Source: Gnetum montanum
Taxonomy: Eukaryota; Plantae; Gnetophyta
Assembly: GCA_015680685.1 (NCBI GenBank)
Contig: MNCI01001687.1
Span: 160,255 to 224,254, forward strand
DNA length: 64,000 nt
Direction: 5' to 3'
The notes under the pieces were generated by a model, which saw only the letters and a program-made list of their open reading frames with translations, was not told the origin of the DNA and made no database searches. This document shows, piece after piece, positions 1 through 53,700 of this stretch. The number at the start of each line of letters is the position of its first letter. The stretch's first letter is position 1. The translations under genes and the position numbers were made by a program.

Positions 1-2244
1 GTACCATTCATTAGTGTGTGTTGTACTGACGGATGCAATTGGAAGTGCGTCGAGGGTGTTGGTTATGGGCTCGAAACAGCTGGTCACGGAGCTTGGTAAT
101 GCATGAAACATGTCAGGGGATATGTTTAAAGCTAAGGTTGCTAAGGCGTCTGCAATGGTATTTTCATTCCTAGGGATATGCTGGATGTCAACCTTTTCGA
201 ACCGTTTAAGTAGGTGCTTAGCTAAATCACAGTATGGTTGTAAGTGTTGTGCTTTACACGTATAGACATCTGTGACTTGGTTTACGACTAGTTGTGAATC
301 CCCTCTTACTACAAGCTGTGTAATGTCCGAGGCTAATGCGGCCGCGAGACCTCTAAGGAGACCCTCATACTCTGCTATGTTGTTAGTACAATGAAAACTG
401 AAGCGATAGGCGAATGGCTTAATTTCTCCAGAGGGGTATGTGATCATAGCGGCAGCACTTCCTCCTCGGGAGGTGGATGCTCCGTCGAAGTTTAGAACCG
501 CCTCGTAATCATCCGGCACCGTGTCTATTGTATTTACATTCTTGTCTAGGAATTCGGGTTCTATTCTACCTGGATCATGCGTTGGCGATGTGGTCATCTG
601 ATTCGCTATGGCTTGACCCTTTACTGATGATTGTGCTACATAGTGTAGGTCAAACTCAGCTATGATTGCCTTCCAACGGGCTATCCTGCTTGACTCATAG
701 ATGTTTCCGGTTATAGCTCTGAGCACATTATCTTTACAAATTATGTTAACTTGATTTTGGAAAAGATAATGTCGCCATTTCTTTAAAGAGAAAACTAAAG
801 CTAAGCATGACTTTTCTACATCGTTATATCTCTTTTCGTGGGCAACCATTGCATGACTCAGGTAGTATACAGGTACCTCAATTCCGTCATCTCGTTTTTG
901 GCACAACATGGATGCGATCGATGATTCTGATGTTGCCAAGTAGATGTAAAACGGCCTATCGTTTTTGGGCGGGAATACGGTGGGTAACCGAGCGAGTGCT
1001 GTTTTAACGTTGTCAAATGCTTCTTGGCACTGCGATGTCCATTCAAAGCGGGTGTTTTTGCGTAGTAGGTGGTTCATAGGTGTAAGTTTTCCCGTCAAAT
1101 TTTCTATGAACCTCCTAATGAACTGCAACCGCCCTTGTAACCCTCGGAGTTCGGTTAGATTGCTAGGTGGTTTTAGGTTCATAATGGCCTTAACCTTATC
1201 GGGGTCTACCCGTATCCCTGCCTCTGAGGCTACAAATCCAAGTAATTTGCCCGTTTTGATGCCGAAAATGCATTTTTTCGGGTTAAGCCTTAGTTCGTAT
1301 TTTAGACAACGTTTTAATACTAAGTCAAGATCTCGCACGTGTTGTTCTGGCGATTTTGATTTGACCACTATGTCGTCCACGTAATCATTGAGCGAGTGTA
1401 AGATATAACCACTGAAAATATACGTCATTGCTTTTTGATACGTGGCCCCAGCATTCTTGAGACCAAAAGGCATCATTGTATAACAAAAGGTTCCCCAAGG
1501 TGTCATGAAAGTAGTTCGGAGCTAGTGTTCTGGATTGATACGTATCTGGTTATATCCTGAGAAGCCATCCATAAAGGATAATAGGGCATGCCCAGCAGTT
1601 GAGTCAACTAGTTGATCAATGCTAGGTAAGGGGAAGTCATCCTTTATGGTTGCTACGTTAAGGTCCTGGAAGTCAATGCAAAGACGAATGCTTCCGTTCT
1701 TCTTTGGGACTATGACCATGTTCGATACCCATTCGGCGTAATCAACAGCCCTAATGAAACCAGCTTGATAGAGCTTGGTAATCTCACTACGAACTGCTAA
1801 CTCCACTTCGGGTTTGACCTTTCGTGCTTTCTGTTTTACTGGCCTTAGTTTCGGGTCAAGGATGATGTTGTGCTGGACGATACGGGGGTCTAACCCGGGC
1901 ATGTCTGTATAAGACCACGCAAATGCCTTCATATTGTCCTTAATTACGTTTTCGATGTCTCTAGCCAAACTTGGTTCTAGTAGTGTGCTTAGTTTTAGGA
2001 TTTTAGTTTCCCCGTTGGGCATGGCGATAGGTGTTTCCGTTAGAGGGTCCTTGGTAATGTTTTTAGCTTCAATGTCGAGGGACTTTGTCATTCCCTCATA
2101 TTCGTCAACCGTTTGCTGTGTTGAAGCTATCGTAAAGTCGTTCGCTGATGAGTTCGCGTAAACGAGATTCGCATCGATACTCCTTTCAATTGCGCCGTAT
2201 GGTCCATCAATGACCAACGGCTCGGTCAAGCGCTTGCAATCCAT
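1..2244 (-). CDS. pol: E1 pol: reverse transcriptase, degenerate RNase H and archaeal-type RNase H (aRH); one premature TAG at 1522-1524; runs off the window
   Basis: Manual translation: WVSNMVIVPKKNGSIRLCIDF, FMDGFSGYNQI, MPFGLKNAGATYQ, YVDD (1372-1383), RH FYIYLATS...YNDVEKSCLALVF, aRH LNFDGAS (FDGAS 475-489)...TNNIAEYEG...GDSQLV...RNENTIADALA. The frame is open from 1521 to position 1. Confidence 0.95.
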
Positions 2245-2351
2245 TAGGCAAGTTCCTGTCAATGAATGGAAAGTCTGATAAGATAGTGGAGGTCGTTTCA
2301 GGTCTTTCAGCAATCTTTAGCGTACATGTGTGAAAATGAGTTAGCATGATA

Positions 2352-2449
2352 AACGAACGGCAGTTTAATGCCTTACCGGGCAATGAACGGCAGTTTAATG
2401 CCTTACCGGGCGACAGACGGCAGTTTAATGCCTTACCGGGCAACGAACG
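2352..2449 (-). repeat. 30-bp tandem repeat x3 upstream of pol (hairpin-motif array)
   Basis: Plus-strand unit aacgaacggcagtttaatgccttaccgggc; element-sense core GCC-CGGTAA-GGC-ATTAAACTG. Confidence 0.9.
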
Positions 2450-2597
2450 CCGAAATTTGTTGTTTGTGTCGTTTTTGTGTGTAGGTTTTATATCTTTTTT
2501 GAAAAATTCAAAACGGATTCGAAAAAGCGCAAAAAACGAGGCAAAAAGCGAGAAAAACGGAAAAGTGGCGGCGGCGTCAGCGTCAGCGTGAACGCGC

Positions 2598-2635
2598 TAT
2601 AAATAGGAAGCGGGGGCGTCATTTTGTCATTTCAC
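2598..2635 (+). promoter_or_regulatory. TATA box and initiator-like site of the antisense gene
   Basis: TATAAATA at 2598-2605 with TTGTCATTTCAC about 25-30 nt downstream. The same arrangement occurs in E2 (CATAAATA near 15064...CCATTTTCAC) and E5 (minus, 53691-53698...TTGTCATTCTCAC). Confidence 0.7.
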
Positions 2636-2736
2636 TTTTGGAACGTGAGCGTGAACCGAGAGCGAAACCCCAGCGTGAACGCCGAGCCAAACCTAAGCCG
2701 TGCACGCCGAGAAGGAACCCCAGCGTATATGCCGAG

Positions 2737-5700
2737 ATGGGCAGAGGTAAAGAACTGGAAGGCCGAGGGCAGAAAGGACCTGAACTGACGTTCGCGGAGG
2801 AGAGCCAGGCGATGCTGCAAGGTCTACCCCGCCCGAGCGTCTCCGCGTGGCCCGGATCTTCTCGCAGGTAGGCCTTTGACCCTGTTTTCATTAATTTTTC
2901 ATTTTCGCAGTGTAGGATTTCGGCGTATACGCCGAGCGTGAAGGGTTGTGGCAGCATGGACGCCACGTGCGTTGTTTTCGGCGCAGGGTTTTTAGGGTTT
3001 TCCTGTTTTTCACACGCCGGGCGTATACGCCAAGCGTGACTATTTTTCGCACGCCGGGCGTATACGCCAAGCGTGGCTGTTTTTCGCACGTCAGGCGTAT
3101 ACGCCAAGCGTGACTGTTTTTAGCACACCGGGCGTATACGCCAAGCGTGGCTGTTTTTCGCACGCCGGGCGTATACGCCCAGCGTGACCTGGGAAATATT
3201 CTGTAAGCGTCTGAAAAGCTTGAAATTTTGGATATTGACTTTTGGCGTCTTTTAATGATTTGCAGAGACGTTGAGACTCCCCTTCTTGTGATCGAGCTGG
3301 TTGGGGTCCTGACATGGTTTGGTCCTTTGGAGGGTAATGACCCGACCCCGAACTTGGTCGTTGAACATAATGGGGTCTGGTTCCGAGACGGGGCCTGCGA
3401 ATTTCTGGCTTTCTTGCTAGACTATTTCGATGTTGTGGTCTGGTCTCATCTAGGCAGTGATGTGGCACGGAGCATTATTGAGGCTATGCTACCCGGCGCA
3501 GCGGAAGGCGTCAGGATCTTCATGGAGGACGTTGATGAGGGGCCACTTGTTGCCGAGGGCGTTCCCCCCGGTGGTCCGAAATCGACCCGTCCGTTAACCC
3601 GTGTGTGGGACCAGCTGCCGCGGGGCGCCAACTACCTCAACAACACACTGTTCCTAGCAAGGCGTGCGCATACTTTGTTCCAGAATCCACCTGGCACTGT
3701 ATACCGGGTGGAGAGGTAATTTCGTCCTAACCTTGATTGTTCTCTTCTTTCTCACATTCAAATATTTACTCCCATTTTGACACATGTTTTCGCTTTCCCG
3801 CAGACCGAAAATTACACTAGATGGGGCCTACGCGGGTGATGATGGGATTGGGTTGGCCCGCACGGCCGTGAAAGCATTCATGGTGGGTCCCACACTGCGC
3901 GGGACCGTTTTGGCTCATACTAGGGATGCCATGAGGAATTTCCCCAAGAAATTTTTGAAGGCATTTGCGCAATGTGCCGCATGTGGTTGGTTACATGCTG
4001 ACTGGGCTCCTAATAGACCGGTTTTTCCTCCCGCCTCTGATCTGGGCGAAACTTCGAGGTCCAACACTGTAAGTAAGTGGCCAGGTTTTCTAAATGTCGT
4101 GTTTGGTTTGATCGATTGTCAAGTATTGCGCTCATGTGAGGGTTTCGGGTTTGCCTTTATAGCTGGCACCACCTCCGGCAGGGATTCTGTCATGACTGGG
4201 AGGACCGAGGCTACTCTCTCAATGAAATTTGGTGAAACCAATGCGGCTCAGAAGTGGCTTCGATCGAAGGCTTCGCCATCCATTGTCGCCTGCTTGGAGC
4301 ATGCCGGCCTCATGGTGCTCTTTGCTGCCCCTAGCCCAAACGTTTCTATAGCGGAGATGATCGGGATTGTAGATTCATTCGATAGACCCGTCTCTTGCTA
4401 TAGCACCCGTGTCAGGGGCGTTAACGTGATTTTCGAATTGTCACCTCAATTTCTCGCAGATTTGTTTGGCGTACCTGCTAGTGGCATAAAAGTTGTTATG
4501 GACAGGATACATAAAGAAATTGAGATGGTCCGTGATTTAGAGGATTGGCTAGGGATTAGGAAGGGTACCAAAGGGTTCCCAATGCAGGGGAAAACAAAGG
4601 TTGAGGAAGTTAACGAACTCTACCCCTTATTTAGAGCGCGTTTGTTCCCAAAGACGCTATCACAAGTCAAGACTTTCGGTGTTGAAGCCGTGCGGGTTAT
4701 GCGCACTATTCTGGAGGCTGGTGTGCGTTATAACTGGGCGGATTTTTTATTAGCAGGGATGACCAAGGATATAGAGCGGATGCGTTCAAATATAGAGGCG
4801 CAATCCCATTTTACTTTTGCCTTCTTTGCTGGCTATATCCGTCGCTTGGTTGAATTCTTGGTGGTTCGTGGGGAAGGCAAGTTTGTTTTGCGTGATAGAT
4901 ATCAGTTGTCTCGCCCCTGGGTGAACCACCTATTCGACACCGCCAAGTCCTAAGACGCCCCCGAGGGGATCGATGAATCCCTTACGATTACCACGGGTGG
5001 ATCGTCTGGCCCTTCGCTCCACACACGCGACAGCCTAGGGGTGGAACCCAATGGAGTACCTCCAACTTCAAGGAAGGCGGAGCGGGTGGTAAAGGAGATA
5101 ATTGGCAAAGTGAAGTCCAAACTGGGGAAGCGCAACAGCACAACCGAGGGAACCAGCGAAATTGAGCAGCCTAGAGTAAAGCGGATCCGATTCAAGATTC
5201 CTGGTAAATTTCTTGCCTTTTATTTCACTTGTCTTACACATAATTTTAACTGTTACTGGTTGTGTGCAACTGACTTGGCTTATCTTGAATTGAGCAGTCG
5301 AGAGACATGACCTTCCGCCTATACCAGAAGACGAGGAATTGACCGATCCGGCGGGAGGCACCGAATTGCTGGAGGAGGTGACTGGAGGAACCGGGGGTAC
5401 TGAACCCCTGGACGACCAAGCGGAAACTGAAGAAATGCTTAAAAGCTTTCTTACAGGGGACCTTGATCTTGGAGACCCTCCAACCCAAGAGGAGATCAGA
5501 AGGAACGGTATGTCTTATTGCTCCGTTATTCAGCCTAATATGTTCTTGGATTACCCTATTATGACGTGTTTTCGTTTGATTCAGAGGAGGGTGAGACCGT
5601 CTCAGAGAAGGAACAAGAGATCCCTCCTGAAGTGTCTCCGAAGGCTAGCTCTTCGCGCACCGATGGTCCTTTTACTTGGATGGAGATGCCAAGTAAAAAG

Positions 5701-6773
5701 GATTTCGTGGCTGGGGTGGCCGAAGAGGTTGTCGAACGGATCGAGAGGATCAACCCCAATATAGGTATGGGTGTATCTAAAGTTTTTGTTTTAGAGTTGG
5801 ATGCTTAGTCCCATTTGTTTTAACGTTTACCTTTTTCCCACGAACAGGCGCCCAGCTAAGGTGGGACCCATCCGAGCCCGTNNNNNNNNNNNNNNNNNNN
5901 NNNNNNNNNNNNNNNNNNNNNNNNNNNNNNNNNNNNNNNNNNNNNNNNNNNNNAACAATTGTGGCTTCAAATTCAGGACAAAGAGAAAGAGAATTCTGCC
6001 TTGTCAAAAGAACGTGATGATTTGAAGGCCCGCTATGAGTTCACAACAGCTAGGTTAAACAATGATCGCTTTTGGCGGACATCCGAGGTCACCTATACAA
6101 GGTATTGGGACCTTCTTAATCGCCATGCAGGGCTGATACGGAGGCTGGGGGAGCGAAGAGCCCAAATTGACCTGCTGAACACCAAGTGTCAAGATTGGAA
6201 GGCCTTTGCCTCCAATGTTCGCAAATGGGGACAAGACGAAAAGAACCACAAGCACCAATACAAAAAGTTGCTAAAAGAAGTTTCAATTGAGAAGCGACAG
6301 TTAGAGATGTTTGTGGAAGGTCTGGGTCTGCGCTCCGCTTTTAACACCTTTGCCCAGAACACAATTGTGGAGATGGAGTCTCCGAAACGGCGGATAACAA
6401 CAGCTTCTGGGGAGGTGTCGGTAGGTGAATTCCCTCTGAAACGCCCCACCTGGTCAGCGGTCGATAAGGACAAGGCTTTGGCTGATATAGACTTGGGTCT
6501 GGATGGGACGGATTGGGCTAGTGTTCCTGAAGAGGAGATCCTGCGACGACTTGAATTTGGCCTGGGGGGACCTCCTATGGTCAGCGTTTTGTCTCTTTTT
6601 GTTTTTGGAGTTTGAAATTCCGACATTCACTTTTGCCTTTTTGTTGACTGTTTCATTTTTGGTCTTTTCAGGATGAAGGTGGGGACGAGACTGGCGAAGT
6701 TGGCTCCAGTGGAGCAGGGGTGTCTGGTGCTGGTGAGCCTGAGGAGGATGATCCACATGGCCCAAACGCTTAG
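2737..6773 (+). CDS. E1 antisense accessory gene, 8 exons, about 1040 aa: FCP1/NIF-like pseudo-phosphatase, plant-transposon-protein-like domain, acidic linker, coiled coil; one premature TAA at 4951 and an N gap
   Basis: Exons 2737-2867, 3266-3715, 3804-4072, 4163-5203, 5298-5507, 5585-5764, 5848-6579, 6672-6773. All 7 introns are GT-AG (398, 88, 90, 94, 77, 83, 92 bp) and every junction preserves the frame. Homologous exons occur in E2, E3 and E5. Confidence 0.85.
2922..3187. repeat. CpG-rich 36-37-bp tandem repeat (about 5 copies plus one outlier) in intron 1 of the antisense gene
   Basis: Unit cacgccgggcgtatacgccaagcgtg(a/g)ct(a/g)tttttcg containing the palindrome GGCGTATACGCC. Confidence 0.9.
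3266..3715 (+). CDS. Exon 2: FCP1/SCP (NLI-interacting-factor, HAD-fold) phosphatase-like domain lacking catalytic Asp residues
   Basis: LLVIELVGVL ~ LLVLDLNGxL (motif I); VWFRDGACEFLAFLLDYFDVVVWS ~ KRPxxxEFLxFCFxxFxVxVWS; RPLTRVWDQ ~ KDLxKVW; NNTLFLARR...FQNPPGT ~ NTLLIDDSP...NPPxT. Motif recognition, not an HMM hit. Confidence 0.75.
4163..4950 (+). CDS. Exon 4 (5' part): domain resembling the putative plant transposon protein (Transposase_32-like accessory ORF family)
   Basis: VRGVNVIFELSPQFLADLFGVP and RYNWADFLLAGM...FFAGYIRRLVEF. Homologous segments in E2 (VHEVQVVIDINDQLFMDLFGVP) and E3 (MHNVRVSFDINDQMLTKIFGIS). Confidence 0.55.
5882..5953. other. Assembly gap (72 N) inside exon 7
   Basis: N run. 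The homologous segment in E2/E3 is about 40 codons, so the true gap is probably longer than 72 bp. Confidence 0.95.
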
Positions 6774-7019
6774 CATTTTAGCATTTTTCTGGTTTTTCAA
6801 TTCAAGCTTGTACTGGAACTGTGATGGCATTAACAGGGATTGTTGACTGTATGTAACAACATGCATATATATCTATATATGGTTTTTTTCCCTTCTTCTT
6901 TTTTTTTTTTTTTTTTTGATTTTGGGTTTAACATACCATAGAAATATAAAATATTTTGATTTGTTTTTGTTTTAAGTGCGATGCAGGAAGCGATTAAAAG
7001 GAGGATGAAAAGCTGATAC

Positions 7020-7106
7020 TAGTTTATGGCCATTTCGGGCCCCATGCGTAGTTTATGGCCATTTCGGGCCCCATGCGTAGTTTATGGCCATTTCGGGCCC
7101 CATGCG
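7020..7106 (-). repeat. 29-bp tandem repeat x3 (hairpin-motif array)
   Basis: Plus-strand unit tagtttatggccatttcgggccccatgcg; element-sense GGCC-CGAAAT-GGCC-ATAAACTA. Confidence 0.92.
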
Positions 7107-7253
7107 TAACTAAAGAATGTTTTGGAGAATGCGGGTAGATTTCTCGGATAACCGATCATTGCTGATCGTGGCTAGTTTTATGTCATTGCGGACATGATAG
7201 TTTAGTGTCATTTCGGACCGGGAGTGACTCTTGATTGTTTTTTTTTTTTATCA

Positions 7254-7464
7254 TAGTTTAATGTCATTTCGGACTTTTTATAGTTTAACGTCATTTCGGA
7301 CTTTTTATAGTTTAACGTCATTTCGGACTTTTTATAGTTTAACATCATTTCGGACTATTTATAGTTTAACGTCATTTCGGACTTTTTATAGTTTAACGTC
7401 ATTTCGGACTTTTTATAGTTTAACATCATTTCGGACTTTTTATAGTTTAACGTCATTTTGGACT
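7254..7464 (-). repeat. 27-bp tandem repeat x8 immediately after the gag-pro stop (hairpin-motif array)
   Basis: Plus-strand unit tagtttaacgtcatttcggacttttta; element-sense GTC-CGAAAT-GAC-GTTAAACTA. Confidence 0.95.
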
Positions 7465-7477
7465 AAGGATTAGCTTT

Positions 7478-10400
7478 CTATTTTAATTGTTTCTTGATAT
7501 TCTTTATTTTTAAATCAGTGGATGTACTGATAGGCACTATTTTATATTCAGCATCTCCCTCGCTGATTACGTTGAATGGAAATTCAGCCCAGGGGACGTT
7601 TGTTGGAATATTTTCGGTGTTTGTATTTTCGAGGGTTTCAGTATTGGTTGTTATTTCCGCGTTGTCTCCTTCATGGGGCTGCAGGTATAGTATGTCAGAT
7701 GGAGGCGTTTTGGTGTTAGGAGACTTTTAATCCGTGACAGAGGGCTTGCCATCTGTTGGCGATCGGGGGTTCTCGTCATTTGGACTAGGTTTTTCGATCT
7801 CTATTTGTGACCCTTGCTCTATTTCTAAGCTTGAAGAGATTATGGGAATTGTCGCTTCCCCATGTATAACGACCTCTCCGCCCTCGTAGGGCAGGTGAAT
7901 TTCCTGATGTATGGGAGATGATACGGCTCTTAACTGGGCTAACCAGGGCCTTCCTAAGATGAGATTGAACCCTGGCATCTCATCGACTACCAAGAAATCA
8001 GCGGATGTAGGGAACTGGTTTCCCGCTATAAAGTCAAGGGTTATCGTGCCCTTGACTAATACACGCGACCCGCTGAAGGATTTCAAACATGCAGTTGTCG
8101 TGGGTTTGATCGCGTCTGTAAGTCCCAATTGTTCGATGATTGGATATGGCACAACATTAGTGGCTGCCCCATCATCTACATGTACCCTATGTATCTTAAA
8201 TTGGTTTATATGTATGGTTATAAACATGGGGGTCGTCGTCGTCTCGCCGGTTGTTTTATCTGTTTTGATGCTCTCGTCACGAAAGCTTAAGGCGTTAGGG
8301 CTGACCCCGCGAGGAGAATACATCACCGCATGGATTGCTGGTTCGCTCGGAGGCAAGTCCTCACTAACCGGGATAGATGTTAACATGCGTACAAGCGCTT
8401 CGCGGTGAGTCTGGGAAGTCAACACTAAATCATATAAGCTTAGAGACGTGTTTTTTTGTTTCAGTGCCTGAGTGACTTGCATTAGGACCGTCGTGAAATC
8501 CCTGCTGTCAGGAGCATTTTGGTTGAGAGGGACTGGGTCCATCGGGCCCAGGAGTTTTATCTCGCGTTTTTGTGATTTGTCGTTCTTGCGGATGTTAGCA
8601 GTGTCGCGTTGTTCGTGCGTCCGAGAGGTTTCGCCGCTGCTGCCTACGTCCAGTTGATTATCAGATGATGCCATAGGCATGGAGCTGAGAGGTGTTGGTT
8701 TAGGTGGCCCCACGGCTAGCCGTTGGCGTTCCTTCTCCACGCGTTCGCGTGTGAGCCTGTCTGCTAGGCGTTCTCGCGTGTTACAAGGACTTGGCCTCGG
8801 ACCCTGGGATTGTCCAGGGACCTTTACGACATATGGAGCAAGACGGGGTTGTGGGTATGACTGGGCAGGAGCTTGTGCGGGCACTCGGACGACGTATGGA
8901 GTTGGCCTTAGTGGAGATGGGACCTCCGTCATTGCAACCGCAGGTGGTACTCGGGCTACAAAGGGGGTAGGCCGAGCGTAAGATGTCGTTGTGCTCGTGG
9001 GATTAACGGGGGGAATGTGCACCACGTAGGGTTGTTGGCGCGTCGTCATGTTGGGGATGGGTGTAATCGAGGGTACTCGAACTACGTATGGCCGCTGCAG
9101 GGTACGAGATGTCTGGGGTGCGAGCATAGGCTCATGGAGAGGGATTTGAACTACAAACGGCTTGTTAGATATTTTCTTATTCTCCGGGTGTATCATATTA
9201 ATGTGGGGTGTGTCGGGCTCATCGTCACAGTAAATCGTGCTAATTGTGTATGGAGCCTCCTTAGTATTTAGGGGGTCTTAGTACACTCCCATGGTTTGAT
9301 TTTGTGGTTGGACGGGGTTAGCTCCGTCAAACGTGATGCTACCTTTGTCAATCATCCGTTGGATATCCTGCTTCAAAGTAAAATAGTAATCTGTTCCATG
9401 TCCCGGTCTTTGATGATAGTCGCAAAAGCGATCCATCCGGAACCCTTTGGGCACGGGGGGCTCATCTAGGGTTGCTAGGCTCGGATTCTGTACGAGTTGA
9501 CAGAATCGGTCGTGTCTTTGAATGGCTGCAGGGGATAATTGTTTGTGGCTCATCGACCCAGCCTTTAAGAGCTGATCGAAGAGTTGAGAAGGCTTCATTG
9601 GCAGAGGCGTATATTGAGAGGGTTCTTTCCTCTCAAAATTCCGTGTACGGTTTGTCGGATTCTACTGCGGTGATGATTCTTGTGCGGTGGTTGCGGGCTG
9701 GGGGTGATAGTAGTTAGTAGGTGGCGTCGGCGGCTTTTGTTGTTGCGTCCCTGCTACGGCCGCTATAGTGGTTTTAGTCTTTTCTTTGTCTTTCTTAGTA
9801 TGTTGACTCTTAAAGTCTATGTAGGCCGGATCGTGACTGTTTTGGGCAGCTTCTTCAATGTTCTTAATTTGCTCGAACGCTTGATTGAGATCTCGCGCAT
9901 TGAGGTAATACAGTTTAGATTTAAAGAAATCGTTGACTGCCCCTTTTAGGATCGTAAGTAGGTAAAATGGGGAGATCGGTTCATGAAGCTTGTTCAGAGC
10001 TGCGTTCCATCTTTGAATAAATTTTTGGATCGGTTCGAGAGGCCCCTGCTTAATCTGCATGAGGCTATCCAGCGTTGGCTCGGGTTTCAAGTTGTACTTA
10101 AACCGGGTCACAAACTGACGTATAAGATCATCCAAAGCACAGATGGAGTTCCTGGGCAAGGCGCGGTACCAATCGAGTGCCCTTCCCGTGAGGGACATGG
10201 GGAACACCCGGAGGACAGCGTGAGGCCAAGCTTGGAGCAGGGCACATTCCAATCGGAATGTTATGAGATGGGCGTTAGGATCTGTCTCGCCGTTATACTT
10301 AGTTAATGTCGGCAAGGGAACACCTTTGGGCAAGGTTAAAGGTGGGAAAGAGGAGCTGATGGGGTCATCATTATAGAAATCTACTACTTTCATCTCCCCA

Positions 10401-11557
10401 TCGGTGACGATTTTGAGGCGCTTTACCTCATCTGTCAATTCCTCCATCATCCTTTTGGCATCTGCCCAATCCTGAGCGTTTGGGAGTAAGGTGGTTTGAG
10501 CTTGGGACTGGCTGTATGGGTTAGAATGCTGAACGGTAGAATGGAAGGCTGAAAGTTGCGTTGTCGGGGGTTGCATTTGTGGGAAGTATGTGGTAGATGG
10601 CATCAGAGGCGCTACATTATAGAGAAGAGGCTGTTGCTGATGCGGTCGTGGCTGTGCCTAAGGCACATGAATTGTTGGCAACATGTGGGGCGGTATGCAG
10701 TGTTGGGAAGCCTGGTGCGACGTCGTGCCCGTCATCGGCCACTGCCCGACCATGTTGTACGAGGAGGCTCCTTGTTGGGTTACGGCAGTGAAAGGGGGCA
10801 CGTGCGTCTGGACATGCGGGATGTAGTGGGCAGGTGTGGAGATAGGTATAACGTGTGGCTTTCTTACCACTTGGGACTGGGCTTGAAACGTCACTCCTAG
10901 GTTGCTGTGAGGGGGCGGTGCTTGTGAGGATGAACCTGCGAGTGTAAAAGGGAAGGCATTCGACAAAGGATGGCCTTGGGGAGGGACTTGAGCTGACGCG
11001 GATGTTCCTTGTAACAGTGCTTGGGTATGGTCAGAGGTAATGGGTTGGAGGGGTGTGGTTTCCCCTGCGTCCGAGTTAAATACAGGGTTCACGTGGTTAT
11101 GCAGACTGAGAGTATGATAGGAATCTTCACGTTCAGATTGCGCAGCGAATTCGTCCTCTTCATCCCGTTGTGGTTCTACCGTAACCTGGTCTAACAATTG
11201 GCTCCTATGCAGAAGGAGCTGCGTAAAGAGCTCCGAGAATTGCTCCGGAATGGGGATTACGTCGTATGGGGAAGGGATGAATTCATACCCCCCTCTGTAA
11301 AAGATCTCAAATTGCCTTTTTACTTCCATCTCAGCCCGGTCTACTGCCAGGCCAGCTTGTATCTTAATGCAAATGAAGTTATATTCGTCTTGGCTTATGA
11401 TATTAGCGGCAGGGTCTCTCCCTTGCAACCTCAAAGATCGACGGGGCCCCATTGTGGATTGCCCTCCCATGTGTTGTGTGGCGGGTTGCTGGGCAGTCGT
11501 TGCGTCTGAGATGTTAACGTTCTGGGTAGTAGCAGCAGTGATGTTGATGGGTTTCAT
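7478..11557 (-). CDS. gag: E1 gag-protease polyprotein (1359 codons) in one frame, interrupted by four premature stops (10658, 9662, 9278, 7727)
   Basis: ORFs 10658-11557, 9662-10603, 9278-9598 and 7727-9196 share one frame and continue to ...IKKQLK* at 7478. Retrotrans-gag KYNGETDPNAHL...SLTGRALDWY; Tat-type knuckle FCDYHQRPGHGT; protease VHVDDGAATN...LILGRPWL. Confidence 0.92.
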
Positions 11558-11639
11558 GATTATAGACGATTTGAGTGTGTGGAACTGATATGGATAACGG
11601 TGTATGCGGTGGCGTAGACGAGTCTACAGGCTAAGTATC

Positions 11640-11910
11640 TGCGGCGTAAACGCCGGCGTAAGCGTGTAGCGTGTACGCTAAGTATGCAGCGTAGACGCTG
11701 ACGTGAGCGTGTAGCGTGTACGCTGGGGTTCGTCTGCAGCGTAAACGCTGGTGTAAGCGTGTAGCGTGTTCGCTAAGTATGTGGCGTAGACGCTGGCGTA
11801 AGCGTGCAGCGTATACGCTAGGGTTTGTGCAGCATAAACGCTGGCGTAAGCGTGCAGCGTATACGCTAGGGTTTGTGCAGCGTAAATGGAGTCGACAGCG
11901 TAGACGCTGA
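11640..11910. repeat. Degenerate CpG-rich tandem repeats in the E1 5' UTR
   Basis: Repeated gcgtaaacgctggcgtaagcgtg(t/c)agcgtatacgct units. Confidence 0.8.
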
Positions 11911-11985: not shown

Positions 11986-12003
11986 GCCCTCCTTCTAGCG
12001 CCA
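11986..12003 (-). promoter_or_regulatory. E1 primer binding site complementary to the 3' end of plant tRNA-Asn(GUU)
   Basis: Minus strand TGGCGCTAGAAGGAGGGC, 5 nt from the LTR end. The plus strand reads like a tRNA 3' end, ...CCCTCCTTCTAGCG-CCA; tRNA identity is from recalled plant tRNA-Asn sequence. Confidence 0.85.
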
Positions 12004-12008
12004 AAAAC

Positions 12009-13411
12009 TATGCCGACCGAAATCGTCGGTGCAAGGCTGGAACGTGACGAACACCGAAAGAGATGCGGGCGAGCACAGTTGACCCTGCCTCCGCTTGAGG
12101 GCGAGCTGGAGTGGGCGAAGGCAGAGTGCCTTGAACGGTCTGCACGCGGATCAAACAAGGACTTCCCCGAGCGCCGCCGAAGCGTTATACGCTGGGTTAT
12201 ACGTGAACAGGGCGTAAGCAATGAATCAGGCATGCACGGCGTAAACAGCGTAAATAGAAGTGAACACAGCGTGAGCGTACGGGCGTGACAGCGTAAACTG
12301 AAATGAGCACAGCGTGAGCCTACAGGCGTGAGCGTAAACAGTGAATGGATATAGGGCGTAAGCAGGCAGACGACATGAACAGTGGGCGTATACAAACGGA
12401 GGTGGAGCGAAAATGCAAGCGGGCGTGAATGAGTACTGGGCCAAATTGACGTAAAACTGAGAAAGAGCTCACAGCGAGCGTAAACAGTGGTTGTCTTCGG
12501 ACGCGAACCGAGCACGGAGCGCGAACGCAAACCGGCGTAAACAAGGCGTGGGCCAAATCAACGTAAAACTATAAAAGAACTTGCAATAAACGTAAACAAT
12601 GGATTATAGAGTTAAAATGTTGTGCACCGGTCTAACGCAGTTGTGTAGGGACACAAGGCGGACGTAAAGCCCTGGTGGACAGAGGGATGCAGCTGGCGGA
12701 CACGGTGGACGAAGCGCGAACTGTGCTCAGCGTGCAGCGTGCAGGGCTTTCAGCGTAAGCGTGAGCGTGTGAGGGTTTCAGCAGCGTAATTGCTCTGGGC
12801 CAGCTCTGGTAAATTTTCGCGAACCCGGTAAACGTGGAAAATTGGGCTATTTATAGGGGTAGGGTTACTGGGAAAAGCGGATGGGGGGACACGTGGCGTA
12901 TAGACCGGGCGTTACAATTTAGAAACTCGGTACACGCTGGGCGTATACATTACAAGCTGGCGTGTATGCTGAGCGTACACGCTGGGCGTACACGCTGGGC
13001 GTATACGCTGAGCGTAAACACTTACAAGCTGGCGTGTACGCTGGGCGTACACGCTGGGCGTATACGCTGAGCGTAAACATTTACAAGCTGGCGTGTACGC
13101 TGGGCGTACACGCTGAGCGTAGACGCCGGGCGTACACGCTGAGCGTAGACGCCGGGCGTAGAGACCGACAGATGTCCACTTGCTTCAATCCTTGCTCTTT
13201 GGTGTAATCTTCATGTTGCCATTGGAAATCTTGTCGTCGAGCGTGTGCCCCTGCCGTACCTGGGCGTGTACACTGAGCTGGGCGTAGACACTGAGCGTGA
13301 ACGCCGGGCGTAGACGCTGGGCGTGAATGCTGGGCGTAGACGCTGGGCGTGAATGCTGGGCGTGAACGCTGGGCGTAGACGCTAGCACAACAATATTTTT
13401 GTGGTGTTTCA
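12009..13411 (-). repeat. E1 5' LTR (about 1.4 kb) with U3 arrays of GCGTA(C/T)ACGC units at about 12925-13385
   Basis: Starts TGAAACACCAC at 13411. The end aligns with other LTR ends (...GTCGGCATA; CA changed to TA) and abuts the PBS. Confidence 0.9.
12848..12897 (-). promoter_or_regulatory. LTR promoter: G-box/ABRE-like GCCACGTGTC followed by TATAAATA
   Basis: CACGTG at 12890-12895; TATAAATA (minus) at 12848-12855. The same pair occurs in the solo LTR (about 49335-49382) and the E2 5' LTR (about 51817-51868). Confidence 0.65.
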
Positions 13412-15221: not shown

Positions 15222-18200
15222 ATGGCTCCCAAGACTCATCTAGTGCTTACAAAGGTTGAGAAGGTGAGGAGGACCTTGGGGCAATCGACACAATCGTGTG
15301 TGGTGGTGCGGAAGAGCACACCGTTGACCCAGTAGGTTACTATGTTTCCTCTACCTTCTTCGCATTCTTGTTATCATTTTGCATTTTATGCAATTTTATG
15401 ATTTTTGAATCCTATCCTTGGCTACCTGTATTTTCTATTGTCATGTCATTTTGGCCCTTACATCACCAATGTTATTGTTTAGCTCATGATAGATGCATCA
15501 TTGTTATGTCATAGTTGCATGCAAGGTTGCTTAAACTACTACCACTGCAATTGTCATAACCGTGGGGCTTGGGAAGTTTAGGCTTCTTGACCTTCAAATG
15601 GCATGATGTAGAACCCTTAAGGGGGTTAGTACATACGTGTTTCATTAGGGAATGTTGTCGATTTCTCTATTGCTATGCTAAGCTTTTTGTTTTTCATGTT
15701 TTTGCTATGATAAACTTTTGTGTTCTTGCTACGCTACGTGTAGGGAGAGGGCTATGCTACACCATATGCATGAACTATGAGGTGTTGCCATGCTATGTGT
15801 GTATCGCACTTAGGCATGATGCTAACACTCGTTGATGGGTTGCACAGGGTGGGGCTAAGGCCTAGGCTAATTATTTTGAAAATTAGAGGGGTCATGTGCC
15901 ATGTAGGCAAACCCGTGGCCAATGTTCCTCCTCCTCAAATATGTGTGGGGGAGTGGGAGGTATGGTTTAGGAAGGGGGCACAGGGCTTCTTGCAATTCCT
16001 CCTTGATCACTTCAGTGTGATTATTTGGTCCTCCTTGGAGAAGGAGGAGGCAGTCGGCATAACAGAAGCTATTTTTCCTGGGGCGCGCCGAGGCATTCTA
16101 AGGTTTCTGACTGACAGGGTGATCATAAGAAGACAAGGGAAAGGATCCAGTTAGCGGCCAACAGGGTTAAGGTGCTTGGTATGCATTTGGGAGATGCCTG
16201 ATTATAGCTACTACCACCATTTCAACACATTATTCCTTGCACGTTTTATGACAACATGCTTCTAGAACCCTCAAGGAACTATCTACTTTGCCGGCGGGTG
16301 AGTTTCGTAGCTTTGTTATGCTATGTTTGTGCGATGCTAGCCATAGTGGCCTAATGCTAATAATATGAGCTTGCTACCAGGTTCTTAATTAATGAGGATG
16401 GGATCATGACCTACCAGGTTTATTGGCTACAACACAACTAGCCCTGGAGGAGTTCTCTTCTGCTGAGAACCTTAGGGTGGGTGTGATCGGTCAATATAGG
16501 GGTGAATACCACACCTACCCAGATGTGTATTCTCCCATGTACAATTAGTGTAAGGGGTAGGGTTGGATGGATGAGGAGTGGGTGAAACCTTTCAAACTGG
16601 TCATGGTCAAGCAAGTTTGGGTTAAACTCCCACTACTCCCACTGCCATACCAACCTGGTAGGCCGAGTAGTAAGTGCCACATGTTTATGTGTCTTCACAA
16701 ATTTTGAGTTCTCTACATTTTTCACTAAACATTTTTGTGGAATTGTTGCAAGGGATAACAAAATCCTAGGAGGTGACAACGATAGCCATTGGAATACAGG
16801 GGATGAATGTCTACTTCTAGTATGGAGAAGTAGAGATGAGCTAACGTTGGCTGGACGTTGGGGCTTCGGACTCCCTAGTCTAGAACATTGAAAAGGTGGG
16901 GCTTATGGATCTATTCCCGATCTTGCATCTGAACATTCTTGTGGCTGAGATGCTTACCTTAGTTAAATGTTTTTTTGACAAGGTGAGCCACTTTTTCCTA
17001 CACGTGCATGAAGTGCAGGTGGTCATTGACATCAATGACCAACTATTCATGGACCTCTTCGGTGTCCCTGTCGAAGGCATTCCGATAGGGTCAAAATCCA
17101 AGATGGAGTTGACCCTCTAGAAGAAGGACCTTTAGGAGTGATTAGGGATCACCAATGAGCACAAGGGGCTCCCCATGGAGTGATTAGGGATCACCAACGA
17201 GGACAAGGGGCTCCCCAAGGAGTTTTACCCCATCTTCTGTGCTCAGGAATTCCCCTAGCTTCTTACCCAGGGGAATGTCCTGGGGCTTGAGCAGGCTTGG
17301 ATAATGCGTTTGATTATGGAGGAGGGGACTCATTACAACTAGGTTGAGTCTTTGTGTAAAGGCTTGTAGGATGAGATCCTGGGGCATCATATGAAAATGG
17401 AGTTCCATTCCAACATCCATTACACCTTCTATATAGGCTATCTTAAGTGCTTCATGGAGTTCTTGGTGGTCTAGGAGAAAGGAGGCTAGGTCCTGCGAAA
17501 TCGCAACCAGATTTCCAGATCATGGATTTGCCAGGTCTTTCATACCATCTAAGCCTAGGATCCCCTAAAAGTAATTGGAAAGTCATTTTCTATAACGAAG
17601 AAGGATCGGGTGGCCTGTAACGTTTGTGACCAGGACAGCGTATGCGAGACACCCCCCACTATGGATGGTAGCATGTCACAGAGTGAACATCTCATGGTGA
17701 AGATAATGGATGGCAAGGTATGATAGAAGAGGCCTCCCCCAGCTAAGGAAACCCTTCGCATGGAGGAGGAGGATGGGTGAATACTACGGCTTAAACTATA
17801 GAGCATGCAACCCCCCATTGGTAAGAGTTTTTGTTTAGTGCTTACTTTGTTATTGTTTGCTACACTATGCTACGCTAGGTGGTGTAGCGTAGTGTAGCAC
17901 CTACTTTGAGCTAACTTTCTTTGAACTAATGCAAACTTGCTTTTTTTCTTGTAGAGGAAGAAGAAGAAGAAGGCAAAGAGGTGTCGGCTCCTAATATGGG
18001 GATAATGAATAAAGACATGGGGGCCCCAGTCTTAGAGAGAAGGGTCCCAGTTGACATGTAGAGAGCTCCTGCAGTTAGAGCAGGGGCTCTCATTATTATG
18101 GAGAATCCTCCTATTGAGGAGTCTTCCTTGAATAAAAGAGATGCTGGTGTCCTCAAGGGAAAAGTGCCAGCGCATGAAGAGGAGGTCCACGGGAACCTGG

Positions 18201-20301: not shown

Positions 20302-20306
20302 CTTCC

Positions 20307-21517: not shown

Positions 21518-21530
21518 ATGGCCCCTCTTT
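21518..21530 (-). promoter_or_regulatory. E3 polypurine tract
   Basis: AAAGAGGGGCCAT directly before TGAAACACC. Confidence 0.85.
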
Positions 21531-23168: not shown

Positions 23169-24108
23169 CTAGATGTGGTACCACTTTAGGTACATATCAT
23201 TCACTAGATTTGGGAGTTCATTGTCATTGATATCTGCTAACCTGAATGCTCCATTGCCATATGCACTGGTGACAAGGAAAGGGCCTTTCCAACTTACAAA
23301 GAATTTTCTCACTGGTTCACGAACAACCTTAAGAACCAAATGTTCTTTCTTGATTGGTCGCTGATGTAGGCTACGATGATGCTTTTGTTTTTGCCAGTCT
23401 TGATATCTTTTGATGTTGTCAAGTGTTTGAATGCATTTCTCCTCTACTGAGTCTAAATCCACAATCCTGGACTCATTGTATTGAGTTTCATTTATAACCA
23501 TGGAGAGGACCATCTGCAATGAGGGAACTTGTAGTTCCACGGGCAACACCACTTCAGATCCATAGACTAGGCTATAGGGTGTCCTATCGGTAGCTATTCT
23601 GCATGTCGTACGATAGGCCCATAGCACATAGAGGATTTTTTTCATGCCATCATTTTTTGTTGCTACTGAGCATCTTATTCAGTAAATTGATGACCACCTT
23701 GGATTTTGCCTCTGCTTGACCATTTTCTTGTGGGAAATAGGGTGAGGAAAAATATTTCTTGATACCAAGGTTACTGCAGAAAGATTTGATTTTGGTACTG
23801 CTAAATTGTGGTCCATTGTTGGTCACAATAGTCATGGGAAGCCCAAACCTGGTTACTATATTGTCTAAGATAAAATGGAAAACTTGTTGAGATGTAATCA
23901 TTCGTAGGGGAATAGCCTTGACCCACTTCATGAAGTACTCAGTGGTGGTGGTAATGAAGCTATGTCTTGTGGAAGACTTAGGTGTGATGAGGCCTATGAT
24001 GTATAGTCCCCATCATTGGAATGGCCAAGTGATCTGTGTAGTGTGCAATTCAGTTGGTGACATGTGTATTACATTTGCATAACGCTGGCATGTGTCACAT
24101 GTCTTAGC
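23169..24108 (-). pseudogene. pol: E3 integrase core and C-terminus (no chromodomain)
   Basis: WPFQ, TRFGLPMTIVTNNGPQF, SSPYFPQENGQAE, LWAYRTT, WKGPF...LKWYHI*. Confidence 0.92.
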
Positions 24109-36421: not shown

Positions 36422-39400
36422 ATGACATCAAAGAACAAAGGAAAACATGCTAAATTAGTGAATATTGATGAAATGCAGGCGAGTTTGTAGAGGGTTTCAA
36501 AGGCTAGGGTGGAAACTCGGGAGGCTACTCCACTTGCCTGGTAAGTCATCTTTTACCCTCCTGCATGGTTGATATTTTTTTTATTATGGCATCGCAACTG
36601 TACATATTTCAAACATGTGTATTATGTTGGGAATTGATACCTGCTTGCAAAGGCTAAGATATTGTAGTTTTTGATATTACCCCTATTGCCATTGTCAGAG
36701 ACAGACCTTGCGCAGTTGCAAGGGTTCAGGTGATCTTGGGAAATACTGTGTGAATGCAATGCATACCTGGAGGGGTCAGGTATTATACCCTTATGTAGTA
36801 TAAGTAGGATTCCATTATCTTGCCCATAATGGTTGCATGTTATGCTAGGAAAATATGCAATGTTACTTTTATCATCGTTGTCAACGACAGACCTTGCACC
36901 ATTGCAAAGGTTTGGGTGATTTTGGTAATGCATTTCTAGCGTAACCTGCAATTTTCTGGGAGTCAAGGTAACGGAAACTCTAGTGTTGCGTAATGGAATT
37001 TTATGTACCTTTTTTGATTTTTTTTCTCTTACATCGTTAGTATGTCTACATTCCTATTCCTAATGGTAGTGTGTTTCATTGTAAAGGATTGTGCTAAAGC
37101 CTGTCTTGATCGTCTTGGACATTGTGGGCGTTCTGTGCTATTTACATGTCCCTATGGATAATGTTCCTCCTCCTTGTGCTTGTGTAAAGGAGGAGCCAGT
37201 TTGGTTCTAAAGAGGTGCATGAGATTTTTTGTAGTTTTTTTGTGTAATTTCAACGTAATTATTTTGTCACATCTATCGGCCAAGATAGCCGTCGCCATTC
37301 TAGAGATGCTACTGGTTGGATCAACGTAGAGCATCTTGATGTTTCTATTGGATCGCTCAATCAAAACCCAATGGATGTTAGACCATGAATAGAGCACCAA
37401 GGGTTTGAGGCATTTGTCTTGGATCTGGGAGATGCCCAAGTCTAATTGTTATCACACCTACAACACTTTGTTCGTGACTCATCATCTTACAACCTACTTC
37501 CAGAATCCACTCAGCATTGTGTATTATGTAGGTGGGTAAGTGTTTCCACAGCATTATGATGTGCTAACCATTGTCTAAATTTTTGTCAAGTATAAACAAT
37601 TATCTACTTCTGTGGTGTATTTTTTTTATCAATGAGGATGGTGTCTAGGGTGATACAGACACGTTTTCTGTGGCCGAAACGGCCATAAAGGAGTTCACTT
37701 CTGTTAGCAATGTACATGTTGGTGTTATGGGATAACTAGAATTTAAAATCGCACATTACTCTACTTACTATGTCAAATTTTTTGCCAAGTGCAAAAAACG
37801 CGGATGGCTAGATAAGGAGTGGACTTTGGACCATCCTCTCACCATCGCAGATGTGCAAGAGAAAATCCCACCGTTTCCTTCACCCTTTGGATGCGGTAAA
37901 TTATGCTATGGTGGTTGATTGTACAATATTATAGGATCAAAACAATGTATAAAATATTTTTATTTTTCTATATTGTCTAAACCATTGCTTTATGTTCATA
38001 GTTAGGGAATCACGGAAGGTCACGATTATGGCTTCCGGGCGTGAAGCGAGCAGTCTTTTCTTTCATTATGGAAACATAAAAGAAGGGCAATGTTGGCTCA
38101 GTCATAGTGTGGCCATAGTTATCTTAACCAATAACCTTTGGGAAGCTAGACTAAAGGAGCTATTTTTGGCTATAACCCCCGATGTCACCATGGGGAAAAT
38201 GTTAACCCTAGTTAACTCCTTCAGTGTAGAAGCTGAGCGTCTTTACATGCACATGCATAATGTGCGTGTGAGTTTTGATATTAACGATCAAATGTTAACT
38301 AAAATTTTTGGCATTTCCTCTGATGGCCCTACTATAGAAGAAAATTCAAAGGGGAGTTCTAAGCACCAGAAGGAGATAGAGGAGTGGCTAGGGGTTAAAA
38401 AGGAAGTGAAAGGAATCCTTGCTGATAAAATCTAGCTGGAGGTAGCTCATACCATTTATCCCCTCTTCCGAGCCCATGCCTTTCCCAAGTTGCTCTCCAA
38501 GGGAAGAATCCTTACCATAGAGCAGGCTTGGATCATGTAGGAGGTTATGGAGGAGGGAACATGGTATAATTGGGTCAGCTACTTCGTTGAAGGCTTGCAG
38601 GCTAAAATGGTCAAGCTTCGCAAGAAGCTTGAGTCTCGCTTCAATGTGCATTTTTCCTTCTTTATAGCCTACTTTTGACATTTCTTTGAATTCCTGGTGG
38701 TTCATAGGGATGGACAAGATTTCCAAACCATGGATTTCCTAGGTTTTTAGTATCACCCAGTCACAAGAGCCCCTTGAAGTCATTGGGGATTCACTTTCAC
38801 TTACGACTTAGGATCTGGTGGCTCCTCGTGCATGGGGCCAGGATAGCATGGGTGGGGCACTCCCTTCTTACACGAGTACTGTATCAAGGGGGAAACTCCT
38901 AGTAGAAGAAATAGTGAGTTCATCAGTCCAGTGGAAAAGGCATTGTCCGACCATGGAGTCTCCTGGCTTGAGTGACGTAGAGTGAAAGGGGCTGGGAATT
39001 GAATTTCATAGGAATGATCCCCCAGCTGGTAAGTAGAGATATGCATAATTAGTTTATATATATGTATTATGCTACATATAGACATTGTGGTATTGCGTAG
39101 CGTTTGTAATTGTTTTGGCTAACTGTTTTTTAGTAGAAAAAGGGAAAAATGTAGAGGATTTGACCCCTTGAAACAGGCGCAATAGTCATAAGGCATGAAG
39201 AAGGGGCTCCAATTTTGGAAAAGGAGGCCCGTGTTAGTAACGTAGGCTGCACACAGGTTCCTGTGCCTGAAGAAGAGATGGAAGTAGAGGGCATTGAGGT
39301 CCTTTCAAAAACGAGAAGCAGTTTGTCACTCGTGAGTTTGACTTTTCCTCATAGGGAAACCTTACACTATTACCTTTATATCTACCATACTATGTCTAAG

Positions 39401-52799: not shown

Positions 52800-53700
52800 A
52801 CACATTTTCTTGCATGACACAGGACCCCTACAATTTCTAAGATAATTGGAATCGACCTTAGCCCCATCGTGCACAACACAACTAGGAAGTGTTAGCATCA
52901 TGTCTAAGTGCAATGCACATTCAAACATAGCAATACCTAGCGGTCCATGCATATAGCGGAGCATAACCCTCTTCCGGCACATAGCGTAGCAAGAAGATGA
53001 AAGTGCTAGTGCAGTGAAAATAGCCTAGCGTAGCAACAGAGAAATTAACCCTAACAGGGTGATTAACAATACGCCTCGACAAAACACGTGCCGCACCATC
53101 ACATTACACATGGCCGAACCCTCCTAAGGGTCCTATGTCATGCCATTCGAAAGCCAAGTAACTTAAACTATCCAAACCCCCACAGTTATGACAACCGCAG
53201 TGGTGGAGGTTTAAGCGACCTTGCATGCAACGATGGCATAGAGTTTATTCATTCACTGCTGCCGAAACCACAATAGCAGCAATGCAAAGGCCAAAACAAT
53301 GTGATGATAGAAAACATAATTGACTAAGGCTAGGATAAAAAATGAAAGCAGAGAATAATAGAAGGAAAAAAAATGATAACAGAATCATGAAAAGGCCAAA
53401 AGAGCATAGTAGCCTACAAGGTCAACGGCGTGTCTGCCCACGCTGTGATGCATGCTTGTGTCACGCACCCTAGGTTTTCTTCACCTCCTCAACCTTTGCA
53501 AGTGCCAAATTTGTGCATTCCTTCTTTGGAGCCATCATTATGCTTGCAGACTTTTCCTCATCGCAATACAAAAAAAAATTTCCTTACTTGCTATTAACAC
53601 GATTGCTTTGCGCTCCAAAATGGCTCTGTGCTTTGAATATGGGCTCTGCGGTCTTATGGTGAGAATGACAAGCTTACTAGGGTTTAACCCTATTTATGGT
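52800..53700 (-). pseudogene. E5 antisense gene: promoter, exon 1 and part of intron 1
   Basis: CATAAATA at 53691-53698; ATG at 53535 MAPKKECTNLALAKVEEVKK, matching E2 MAPKTHLVLTKVEKVRR. Confidence 0.75.

What the first reader, a model, noticed from the sequence alone, without database searches (positions are those of the whole stretch)
3266..4072. Captured FCP1/SCP (Pol II CTD phosphatase-like) domain turned into a pseudo-phosphatase
Seen: all recognisable NIF-family blocks are present in order, but motif I DxDxT/DxNG reads ELVGV and the DDS motif reads ARR (ARF in E2, THH in E3). Loss of the acidic residues is therefore shared across families rather than recent decay. Known: FCP1/SCP proteins bind and dephosphorylate the Pol II CTD. 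Inference: a dead phosphatase could act as a phospho-CTD reader or decoy, promoting transcription, elongation or splicing of the ~17 kb element or shielding it from silencing.
Basis: partly seen in the sequence, partly recalled or inferred. Interest (0 to 1): 0.85.

Follow-up and report, generated by a model that had tools for sequence, protein, structure and literature searches.

The report
Plant retrotransposon carries a dead phosphatase
A family of plant jumping genes carries an extra spliced gene on its opposite strand, and one exon of it encodes a phosphatase-shaped domain that has lost its catalytic residues but is kept by selection, so it likely serves as a binding module that would help the element, with no sign so far that it binds RNA polymerase II.

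Summary
The domain is real; the Pol II CTD story is not supported. Exon 3266-3715 encodes a NIF/HAD core (Pfam 22.3 bits, cut-off 21.8; profile match to 250 proteins; AlphaFold pLDDT 88.6, SCP1 Z 13.0). It is exon 2 of a predicted eight-exon antisense gene lying between gag-protease and RT of Tat-type Ty3/gypsy elements. Four divergent copies lie in the window. Its nearest kin are the DxNG subfamily of NIF proteins (141 of 153 domains DxN, 2 DxDxT), not FCP1/SCP. Active-site columns are selectively lost (0 of 6 kept versus 17 of 21 other conserved columns), while RNA variants are mostly synonymous (20 of 30), so it is a pseudo-phosphatase under selection. Corrections: motif I keeps an acidic first residue in 3 of 4 copies (E, K, D, E); exon 3 is not shown to be NIF; SCP1's CTD-pocket residues are not kept. 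Sister copies are transcribed at low level and two downstream introns are spliced. None of 79 other related gypsy loci has the domain. Best guess: an adaptor or decoy module of a nuclear accessory protein; its partner is unknown.

The parts
3266..3715 (+). Exon 2 of the antisense gene of element E1: NIF/HAD core of the DxNG subfamily, catalytically dead by motif (ELVGV, Ser kept, Lys to Arg, DD to AR)
2598..2605 (+). TATAAATA box upstream of the predicted start codon; candidate antisense promoter
   Evidence: sequence; a similar box at about 15064 in E2; function inferred
2737..2867 (+). Predicted exon 1 (ATG, 43 codons)
   Evidence: GT donor and phase match; no RNA junction seen
3804..4072 (+). 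Predicted exon 3: conserved between E1, E2 and E3 (C-x3-G-W motif) but not shown to be NIF
4163..5203 (+). Predicted exon 4: conserved domain of about 250 aa of unknown family, then a basic RVKR cluster; stop at 4951-4953 in this copy only
   Evidence: no Pfam, PDB, PMD or TRP28 match; 8 of 8 reads over 4951 differ from this copy
5298..5764 (+). Exons 5 and 6 (5298-5507, 5585-5764): acidic low-complexity region; intron 5508-5584 is spliced in RNA
   Evidence: 3 junction reads in run X4; 30% and 23% acidic
5848..6773 (+). Predicted exons 7 and 8 (5848-6579 with an assembly gap at 5882-5953; 6672-6773): likely coiled coil and acidic tail
   Evidence: 5 reads of X4 leave at 5766 with letters of the exon 7 start (my reading); weak coiled-coil Pfam hits below cut-off
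1..2316 (-). E1 pol: RT, RNase H, archaeal-type RNase H; 1 stop; runs off the window
   Evidence: Pfam RVT_1, RT_RNaseH_2, RVT_3
7727..11623 (-). E1 gag-protease frame, 3 stops
   Evidence: Retrotrans_gag E 1.3e-7, protease weak (E 0.12)
12011..13411 (-). E1 5' LTR (TG..CA, ends approximate) followed by a primer-binding site at about 11987-12003; inserted into the RT of E2
   Evidence: tRNA-Arg identity of the site is recalled, and reported for Ogre in PMC9289625
15848..16297 (+). Exon 2 copy in E2 (450 nt, KIRGV / ARF, stops)
37087..37535 (+). Exon 2 copy in E3 (449 nt, DIVGV / THH, frameshift and stops)
52805..52850 (-). Start of exon 2 in E4 (EIVGV), cut off by another sequence

Best explanation
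Tat-type LTR retrotransposons in this plant carry an antisense, intron-containing gene between protease and RT whose second exon encodes a NIF/HAD domain of the DxNG subfamily that is predicted to be catalytically dead and likely works as a binding module (adaptor or decoy) in a nuclear accessory protein of the element. Shown: the domain, its subfamily, the selective loss of active-site residues, conservation at protein level across four families, low-level transcription of sister copies and splicing of two downstream introns. Inferred: the gene is read from its own antisense promoter; the product is about 1040 aa (short N-terminus, pseudo-phosphatase, unknown domain, basic cluster, acidic tract, coiled coil); the old active site (Ser kept, Lys to Arg, DD replaced by neutral plus basic residues) would bind a phosphorylated or acidic partner without metal and without turnover, most likely a partner of the cellular DxNG protein; the rest of the protein would bring that partner to the element's chromatin or RNA and favour its expression.
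For: Domain and subfamily. Fold: 28, 74, 82, 83. Selective loss, 0 of 6 active-site columns versus 17 of 21 others, Fisher p 7e-4. Selection: 20 of 30 RNA variants synonymous against 0.25-0.32 expected, p about 1e-4 to 2e-6; identity by codon position 0.48/0.59/0.30 for E1 vs E2. Same place and orientation in E1-E3 and on the RT side of E4, with pol only about 52-61% identical. Exon 2 is 450, 450 and 449 nt with the same phase. RNA. Precedents: dead yeast Tim50 as a receptor (PMC8346121); nuclear antisense product of Grande with its own promoter (PMC7264820).
Against: No partner, location or activity was tested. No RNA junction links exons 1-4 (0 joints; reads cover introns 2 and 3), so the fusion of the domain to the downstream parts rests on phase compatibility. 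Only 2 of 172 reads are 99% or more alike, so this copy is not shown to be expressed. Exon 4 is unidentified. The function of the cellular DxNG family is itself not established in what I read, and it lacks the second Asp. The motif II Ser column (kept in 3 of 3) fell just under the 80% cut-off and was left out; I chose the six active-site columns. The host set was found with the element's own profile, which favours shared structural columns.
Confidence: 0.5

Rival explanations
1. The domain reads or shields the phosphorylated Pol II CTD and so promotes transcription or splicing of the long element.
For: Best structural neighbours are SCP1, CTDNEP1 and Fcp1; Ser and a basic residue of the phosphate site remain; a long element with a 5.4-5.9 kb spacer could gain from it.
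Against: Nearest sequences are DxNG proteins, 2 of 153 DxDxT; the family profile ranks UBLCP1 above SCP1; SCP1 positions 106, 155, 158 and 178 are not kept by chained alignment; no DxNG structure appeared in the PDB searches, so the SCP1 hit may only be the nearest solved fold. A conserved Leu sits one residue from the Leu155 position, so the pocket is not excluded.
Confidence: 0.12
2. The protein acts later in the cycle, on Gag, the particle or the integration complex (assembly, nuclear import, target choice), with the dead domain binding a phosphorylated element protein.
For: Coiled-coil and basic cluster; a baculovirus nucleocapsid chain is a structural neighbour (8i8b_J, Z 10.0, rmsd 2.8, 129 aligned; its identity as the 38K phosphatase is recalled); PMC7264820 proposes retroviral-accessory-like roles.
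Against: No interaction data; the viral match is tied with dozens of generic HAD chains at Z 9-11.
Confidence: 0.15
3. The old active site has no role: the domain is kept only as a folded scaffold within the accessory protein, or the antisense RNA matters more than the protein.
For: Long stem (1.2-2.1 changes per column); motif I and IV residues vary between copies; most reads are unspliced or from sister copies.
Against: Protein-level selection; the motif III Arg, motif II Ser and the Thr at the Lys146 column are identical in 3 of 3 copies, which suggests a remodelled rather than abandoned site.
Confidence: 0.15
4. The domain keeps a weak or altered hydrolase activity through the Asp/Glu at motif I and the Arg at motif III.
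For: Acidic first residue in 3 of 4 copies, Ser and basic residue kept.
Against: Both motif IV aspartates, which hold the metal in HAD enzymes (established knowledge), are absent in 3 of 3 copies and in one RNA contig (my translation), and motif I +2 is Val or Arg.
Confidence: 0.06

Closest known systems
DxNG subfamily of NIF/FCP1-homology HAD proteins (mosses, flowering plants, red algae, unnamed metagenome proteins)
   Same: End-to-end match over 144 columns, probability 99.7; shares G, WS, F, L..W, NTL and NP blocks; 26-30% identity.
   Different: Has lost Asn at motif I +2, Lys of motif III (Arg), both motif IV Asp, the conserved Cys and Lys146; C-terminal extension not shown; sits in a retrotransposon.
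SCP1-3 / FCP1 Pol II CTD phosphatases
   Same: Same fold: SCP1 Z 13.0, rmsd 2.7, 129 aligned; Fcp1 Z 10.9, rmsd 2.8, 129 aligned.
   Different: No DxDxT, no DD, CTD-groove residues not kept, 10-18% identity; a different subfamily.
Yeast Tim50 core domain
   Same: A NIF domain that lost the motif and serves as a receptor (PMC8346121, passages).
   Different: Mitochondrial membrane protein; more distant (E 1.3e-7 to the family profile).
Extra ORFs of Tat/Ogre/Retand elements (PMD-coiled coil, TRP28, Grande gene23)
   Same: Antisense accessory gene in an element with gag-PR apart from RT-RH-aRH-INT; coiled-coil C-terminus; likely own promoter.
   Different: Described ones lie 5' of gag or 3' of pol (PMC4408406, PMC6317226, PMC7264820, PMC11963269, passages); this one lies between PR and RT, has seven predicted introns and a NIF domain; PMD or TRP28 likeness not shown.
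Orchid Ogre-like elements with a captured AlkB demethylase (PMC9289625)
   Same: A Tat-family lineage that fixed a captured host enzyme domain.
   Different: That capture is recent and active; this one is old, intron-bearing, antisense and predicted dead.
Arabidopsis MAIN/MAIL1-PP7L and MAIL3 (PMD plus presumably inactive phosphatase; PMC9899485, PMC7156037)
   Same: A transposon-linked protein paired with a pseudo-phosphatase in chromatin control; an analogy only.
   Different: PPP fold, host genes that silence elements; exon 4 here was not shown to be PMD.

Membership tests
NIF / FCP-SCP clan of HAD proteins (PF03031) | Profile match at or above the curated cut-off | tested here: met
   22.3 bits vs 21.8, over profile positions 34-88 only; full-length match through the subfamily
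NIF / FCP-SCP clan of HAD proteins (PF03031) | HAD Rossmannoid core like SCP1 | tested here: met
   the better model used an alignment of the family, the single-sequence model gave the same top family at weak E-values
Active HAD phosphatase | Motif I DxD and motif IV acidic pair | tested here: not met
   E/K/D/E at position 1, V/R/V/V at +2; AR, AR, TH at motif IV
Active HAD phosphatase | Measured phosphatase activity | not testable with these tools
   needs an assay
Pol II CTD phosphatases (FCP1, SCP1-3) | DxDx(T/V) signature and nearest kinship | tested here: not met
   2 of 153 nearest domains have DxDxT; no tree with FCP1/SCP rows was built because no such sequence was held
Pol II CTD phosphatases (FCP1, SCP1-3) | CTD groove Phe106, Val118, Leu155, Tyr158, Arg178 (PMC7281111) | tested here: not met
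   chained sequence alignments: 106 = P/K/V, 155 = G/E/S, 158 = V/E/I, 178 = D/D/D; 118 not alignable; approximate, no residue-level structural superposition
Pol II CTD phosphatases (FCP1, SCP1-3) | Binding to phospho-CTD | not testable with these tools
   no CTD sequence held; needs a pull-down
DxNG NIF subfamily | Nearest relatives and shared blocks | tested here: met
   141 of 153 nearest domains DxN; hhalign 99.7
DxNG NIF subfamily | DxNG and DDS motifs themselves | tested here: not met
   derived, dead form
DxNG NIF subfamily | Nested in the land-plant clade (host capture) | tested here: inconclusive
   free tree places it outside the 20-row plant clade (98/96) on a long branch; sister position not rejected, p-AU 0.265; an earlier test with two plant rows mislabelled gave p 0.0097
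DxNG NIF subfamily | Intron positions shared with host genes | not testable with these tools
   no host genome or gene DNA held
Tat clade of Ty3/gypsy | Extra archaeal-type RNase H; order RT-RH-aRH-INT; gag-PR separate from pol | tested here: met
   integrase-like text after aRH in E4 read by eye; best pol hits 38-46% identical, named ones from flowering plants
PMD or TRP28 extra ORFs | PF10536, PF24924 or PF04195 domain in exon 4 | tested here: inconclusive
   no Pfam hit; hhalign probability 0.2 against shallow profiles of 6 and 7 rows

The most novel reading that the evidence does not exclude
A lineage of Tat retrotransposons has built an eight-exon antisense counter-silencing gene inside its protease-RT spacer, using a captured pseudo-phosphatase to trap a host phosphoprotein and drag it to the element: a transposon-side counterpart of the host's mobile-domain plus pseudo-phosphatase silencing module, and a handle on what the uncharacterised DxNG phosphatase family binds.
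Probability: 0.25. Interest if true: 0.85.

Novelty: new variant of a known kind. Interest (0 to 1): 0.6.

Why it matters
The origin and job of extra ORFs in plant Ty3/gypsy elements is an open question; reviews say most have no cellular homologue (PMC7264820). Here one has a traceable cellular source, a confident fold and a clear pseudo-enzyme signature, in a position (between PR and RT) and form (multi-exon, antisense) that ORF-based surveys would miss. The 150-residue domain is a ready bait: its partner would show how such a gene helps the element, and would also hint at the substrate of the little-studied DxNG family.

Tried and rejected
No whole genome is held for the window. Word-index protein searches with exon 2 found nothing (0 of 36 candidates; 0 of 7995); only the full HMMER scan found kin. 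phmmer and a 4-row profile against PDB gave no hit under E 0.07; the light-harvesting hits are a chance WF..GA match. Metagenome scan with exon 2: 57 pattern matches, 0 relatives. No RNA holder was listed by shared words; runs came by species label. Run X3 laid 0 reads. The Atlas gave no answer for exon 2 or exon 4. Exon 4 as PMD/TRP28: not shown. Exon 3 as NIF extension: not above shuffles. Host donor: unresolved. Rejected: an independent host pseudogene or nested insert, because the gene recurs at the same place in four divergent elements. Host species not identified; the RT-RH-aRH-INT order occurs in several plant groups (PMC13468544, passages). Earlier-findings look-ups returned nothing. 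PMC2859291 was not held. No complex prediction was run.

Full report
Setting. The window is repeat-rich plant DNA made of nested Ty3/gypsy elements. Element E1 lies on the minus strand: 5' LTR about 12011-13411 with a primer-binding site, a gag-protease frame 11623-7727, and RT, RNase H and an archaeal-type RNase H from 2316 to the window edge. In E4 integrase-like text follows the second RNase H (by eye). This is the Tat plan with gag-PR apart from pol (PMC4408406 and PMC6317226, passages). The best pol relatives are mostly 38-46% identical. No genome is held and the host was not identified.

The gene. The finding is exons 2-3 of a plus-strand gene in the PR-RT spacer. Eight GT-AG exons can be drawn from 2737 to 6773; the first six junctions keep the frame, with one stop at 4951-4953, and an assembly gap hides the frame in exon 7. 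The gene recurs in E2 and E3 with both flanks and in E4 on the RT side, in the same orientation, while pol is about 52-61% identical. Exon 2 measures 450, 450 and 449 nt with the same phase (ends read by eye). It is part of the element, not a stray insert.

RNA. Seven runs were laid (X1, X2, X4, X5; X2, X3, X6, X7). Coverage is thin: 172 reads, 2 of them 99% or more alike, so the signal comes from sister copies. Three reads of X4 splice 5508-5584; five leave at 5766 with the letters of exon 7. Over 3140-4460 all X2 depth has the first mate on the minus strand, which in a usual stranded library means plus-strand RNA. No junction was seen for introns 1-4, and reads cover introns 2 and 3. All 8 reads over 4951 differ from this copy, so the stop is private to it.

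The domain. Pfam NIF scores 22.3 bits against a cut-off of 21.8. A profile of the copies run over 1.84 billion representatives found 250 proteins at E<=0.001, best 5.6e-13, most covering the whole exon; 37 of the listed 150 were scanned and all 37 are NIF. Named ones come from Sphagnum, Asteraceae, Rhodiola and a red alga. Of 153 domains cut from 146 of the 150 proteins, 141 read DxN and 2 DxDxT at motif I, and 137 read DD at motif IV. The exon aligns to this DxNG subfamily at probability 99.7 over 144 columns. A model without alignment already hit only FCP/SCP-family chains at the top, weakly, with generic HAD chains at Z under 6; the model on 79 rows has pLDDT 88.6 and gives SCP1 Z 13.0, rmsd 2.7, 129 aligned. 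Exon 3 is conserved between copies but not shown to be NIF.

Dead, and kept. Motif II Ser is kept, motif III Lys is Arg in 3 of 3, motif IV DD is AR, AR, TH, and one RNA contig reads AA there (my translation). No difference was listed at motifs I and IV in X2 reads (depth 4 and 7; 4 rows not shown; the 7 may be one molecule). Among columns at least 80% conserved in the family, 0 of 6 active-site and 17 of 21 other columns are kept by most copies (p 7e-4; I chose the six, and the kept Ser fell just under the cut-off). Of the 30 exon 2 variants among the 40 rows shown, 20 are synonymous against 25-32% expected; these pool several copies. Second codon positions are best conserved between families, third positions least. 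This is a pseudo-enzyme under selection, not decay.

Not a CTD phosphatase by descent. The family profile ranks UBLCP1 (5e-17), CTDNEP1, SCP1-3 and TIM50, with no FCP1 at E<=0.01. SCP1's groove residues (PMC7281111, passages) map by chained alignment to P/K/V, G/E/S, V/E/I and D/D/D; the mapping is approximate and a conserved Leu lies one step from Leu155. CTD binding is therefore unlikely but untested. Trees keep the three copies together on a long branch and do not resolve the donor (155 rows; 39 rows; sister to the plant clade not rejected, p-AU 0.265).

Spread and prior knowledge. In 79 related gypsy loci from metagenomes (722 kb; at least 30 with 5 kb or more upstream of RT) neither the NIF nor the exon 4 profile hit, while the window control did; some carry PMD, DUF7745 or TRP28 frames elsewhere (13 of 18 frames scanned). 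Their PR-RT gap is 178-1883 nt in 51 measurable cases. Paper searches listed no report of a NIF domain in a retrotransposon; one search returned 0 papers. I read passages of PMC4408406, PMC6317226, PMC11963269, PMC13468544, PMC7156037, PMC9899485, PMC7281111 and PMC8346121, parts 1-2 of 3 of PMC7264820, and passages plus section 12 of PMC9289625. The five held supplement files of PMC6317226 (17,418 characters) have no NIF term, but its full eORF domain table and Supplementary Figure 1 of PMC9289625 may not be among what I saw and could bear on novelty. Most subscription papers are not searched.

Mechanism. I commit to an adaptor or decoy role in a nuclear accessory protein (0.5): own antisense promoter, dead pocket that binds without turnover, unknown domain, basic cluster, acidic tract and coiled coil. 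The identity as a dead DxNG-type NIF domain is near 0.9; the partner is open. Rivals: particle or integration role 0.15, scaffold or RNA only 0.15, CTD reader 0.12, residual enzyme 0.06.

Verdict. Observation partly confirmed, interpretation partly supported. A new variant of the Tat extra-ORF theme: new domain, new position, multi-exon. Interest 0.6.

Noticed in passing
window 2274-7727, and E2, E3: The stretch from the protease match to the RT match is 5.4-5.9 kb in E1-E3, against 178-1883 nt in 51 of 79 related loci where both were found. All four copies have a 3' splice-site-like sequence just before RT on the sense strand (by eye), so the whole antisense gene may lie inside an Ogre-like intron. 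No RNA test.
   Followed up: partly
window 4163-4950, 16788-17546, 38034-38717: Exon 4 domain is 30-35% identical between families, 43 invariant columns, and matches nothing tested; it is the best-conserved part of the gene and deserves its own search.
   Followed up: partly
window 3003-3187, 7226-7519, 2350-2445, 11644-11879, 12937-13393: Tandem arrays of 37, 27, about 30, 45-48 and 13 nt inside intron 1, the spacer, the 5' leader and the LTR; reads show copy-number differences at 2441 and 3188.
   Followed up: no
window 13411 and whole window: Nested landscape: E1 is inserted in the RT of E2; further gag, pol, integrase and LTR pieces of the same clade at about 20300-34000, 44900-50400 and 52800-63700.
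   Followed up: partly
run X7 record 4, laid on window 3983-4030: A 1662-nt contig at depth 14.7 carries a more distant version of exon 3, suggesting that another family of the gene is better expressed (the run's RNA status is a guess).
   Followed up: no
proteins P0123-P0131: Several plant DxNG proteins have two NIF domains, and in some the second has a degraded motif (DxGG; DT, DN or EN at motif IV), so dead copies of this domain also arise in host genes.
   Followed up: no
L032:3060-5303: A PMI1/PMIR-like host gene frame lies upstream of a gypsy RT in one metagenome locus.
   Followed up: no
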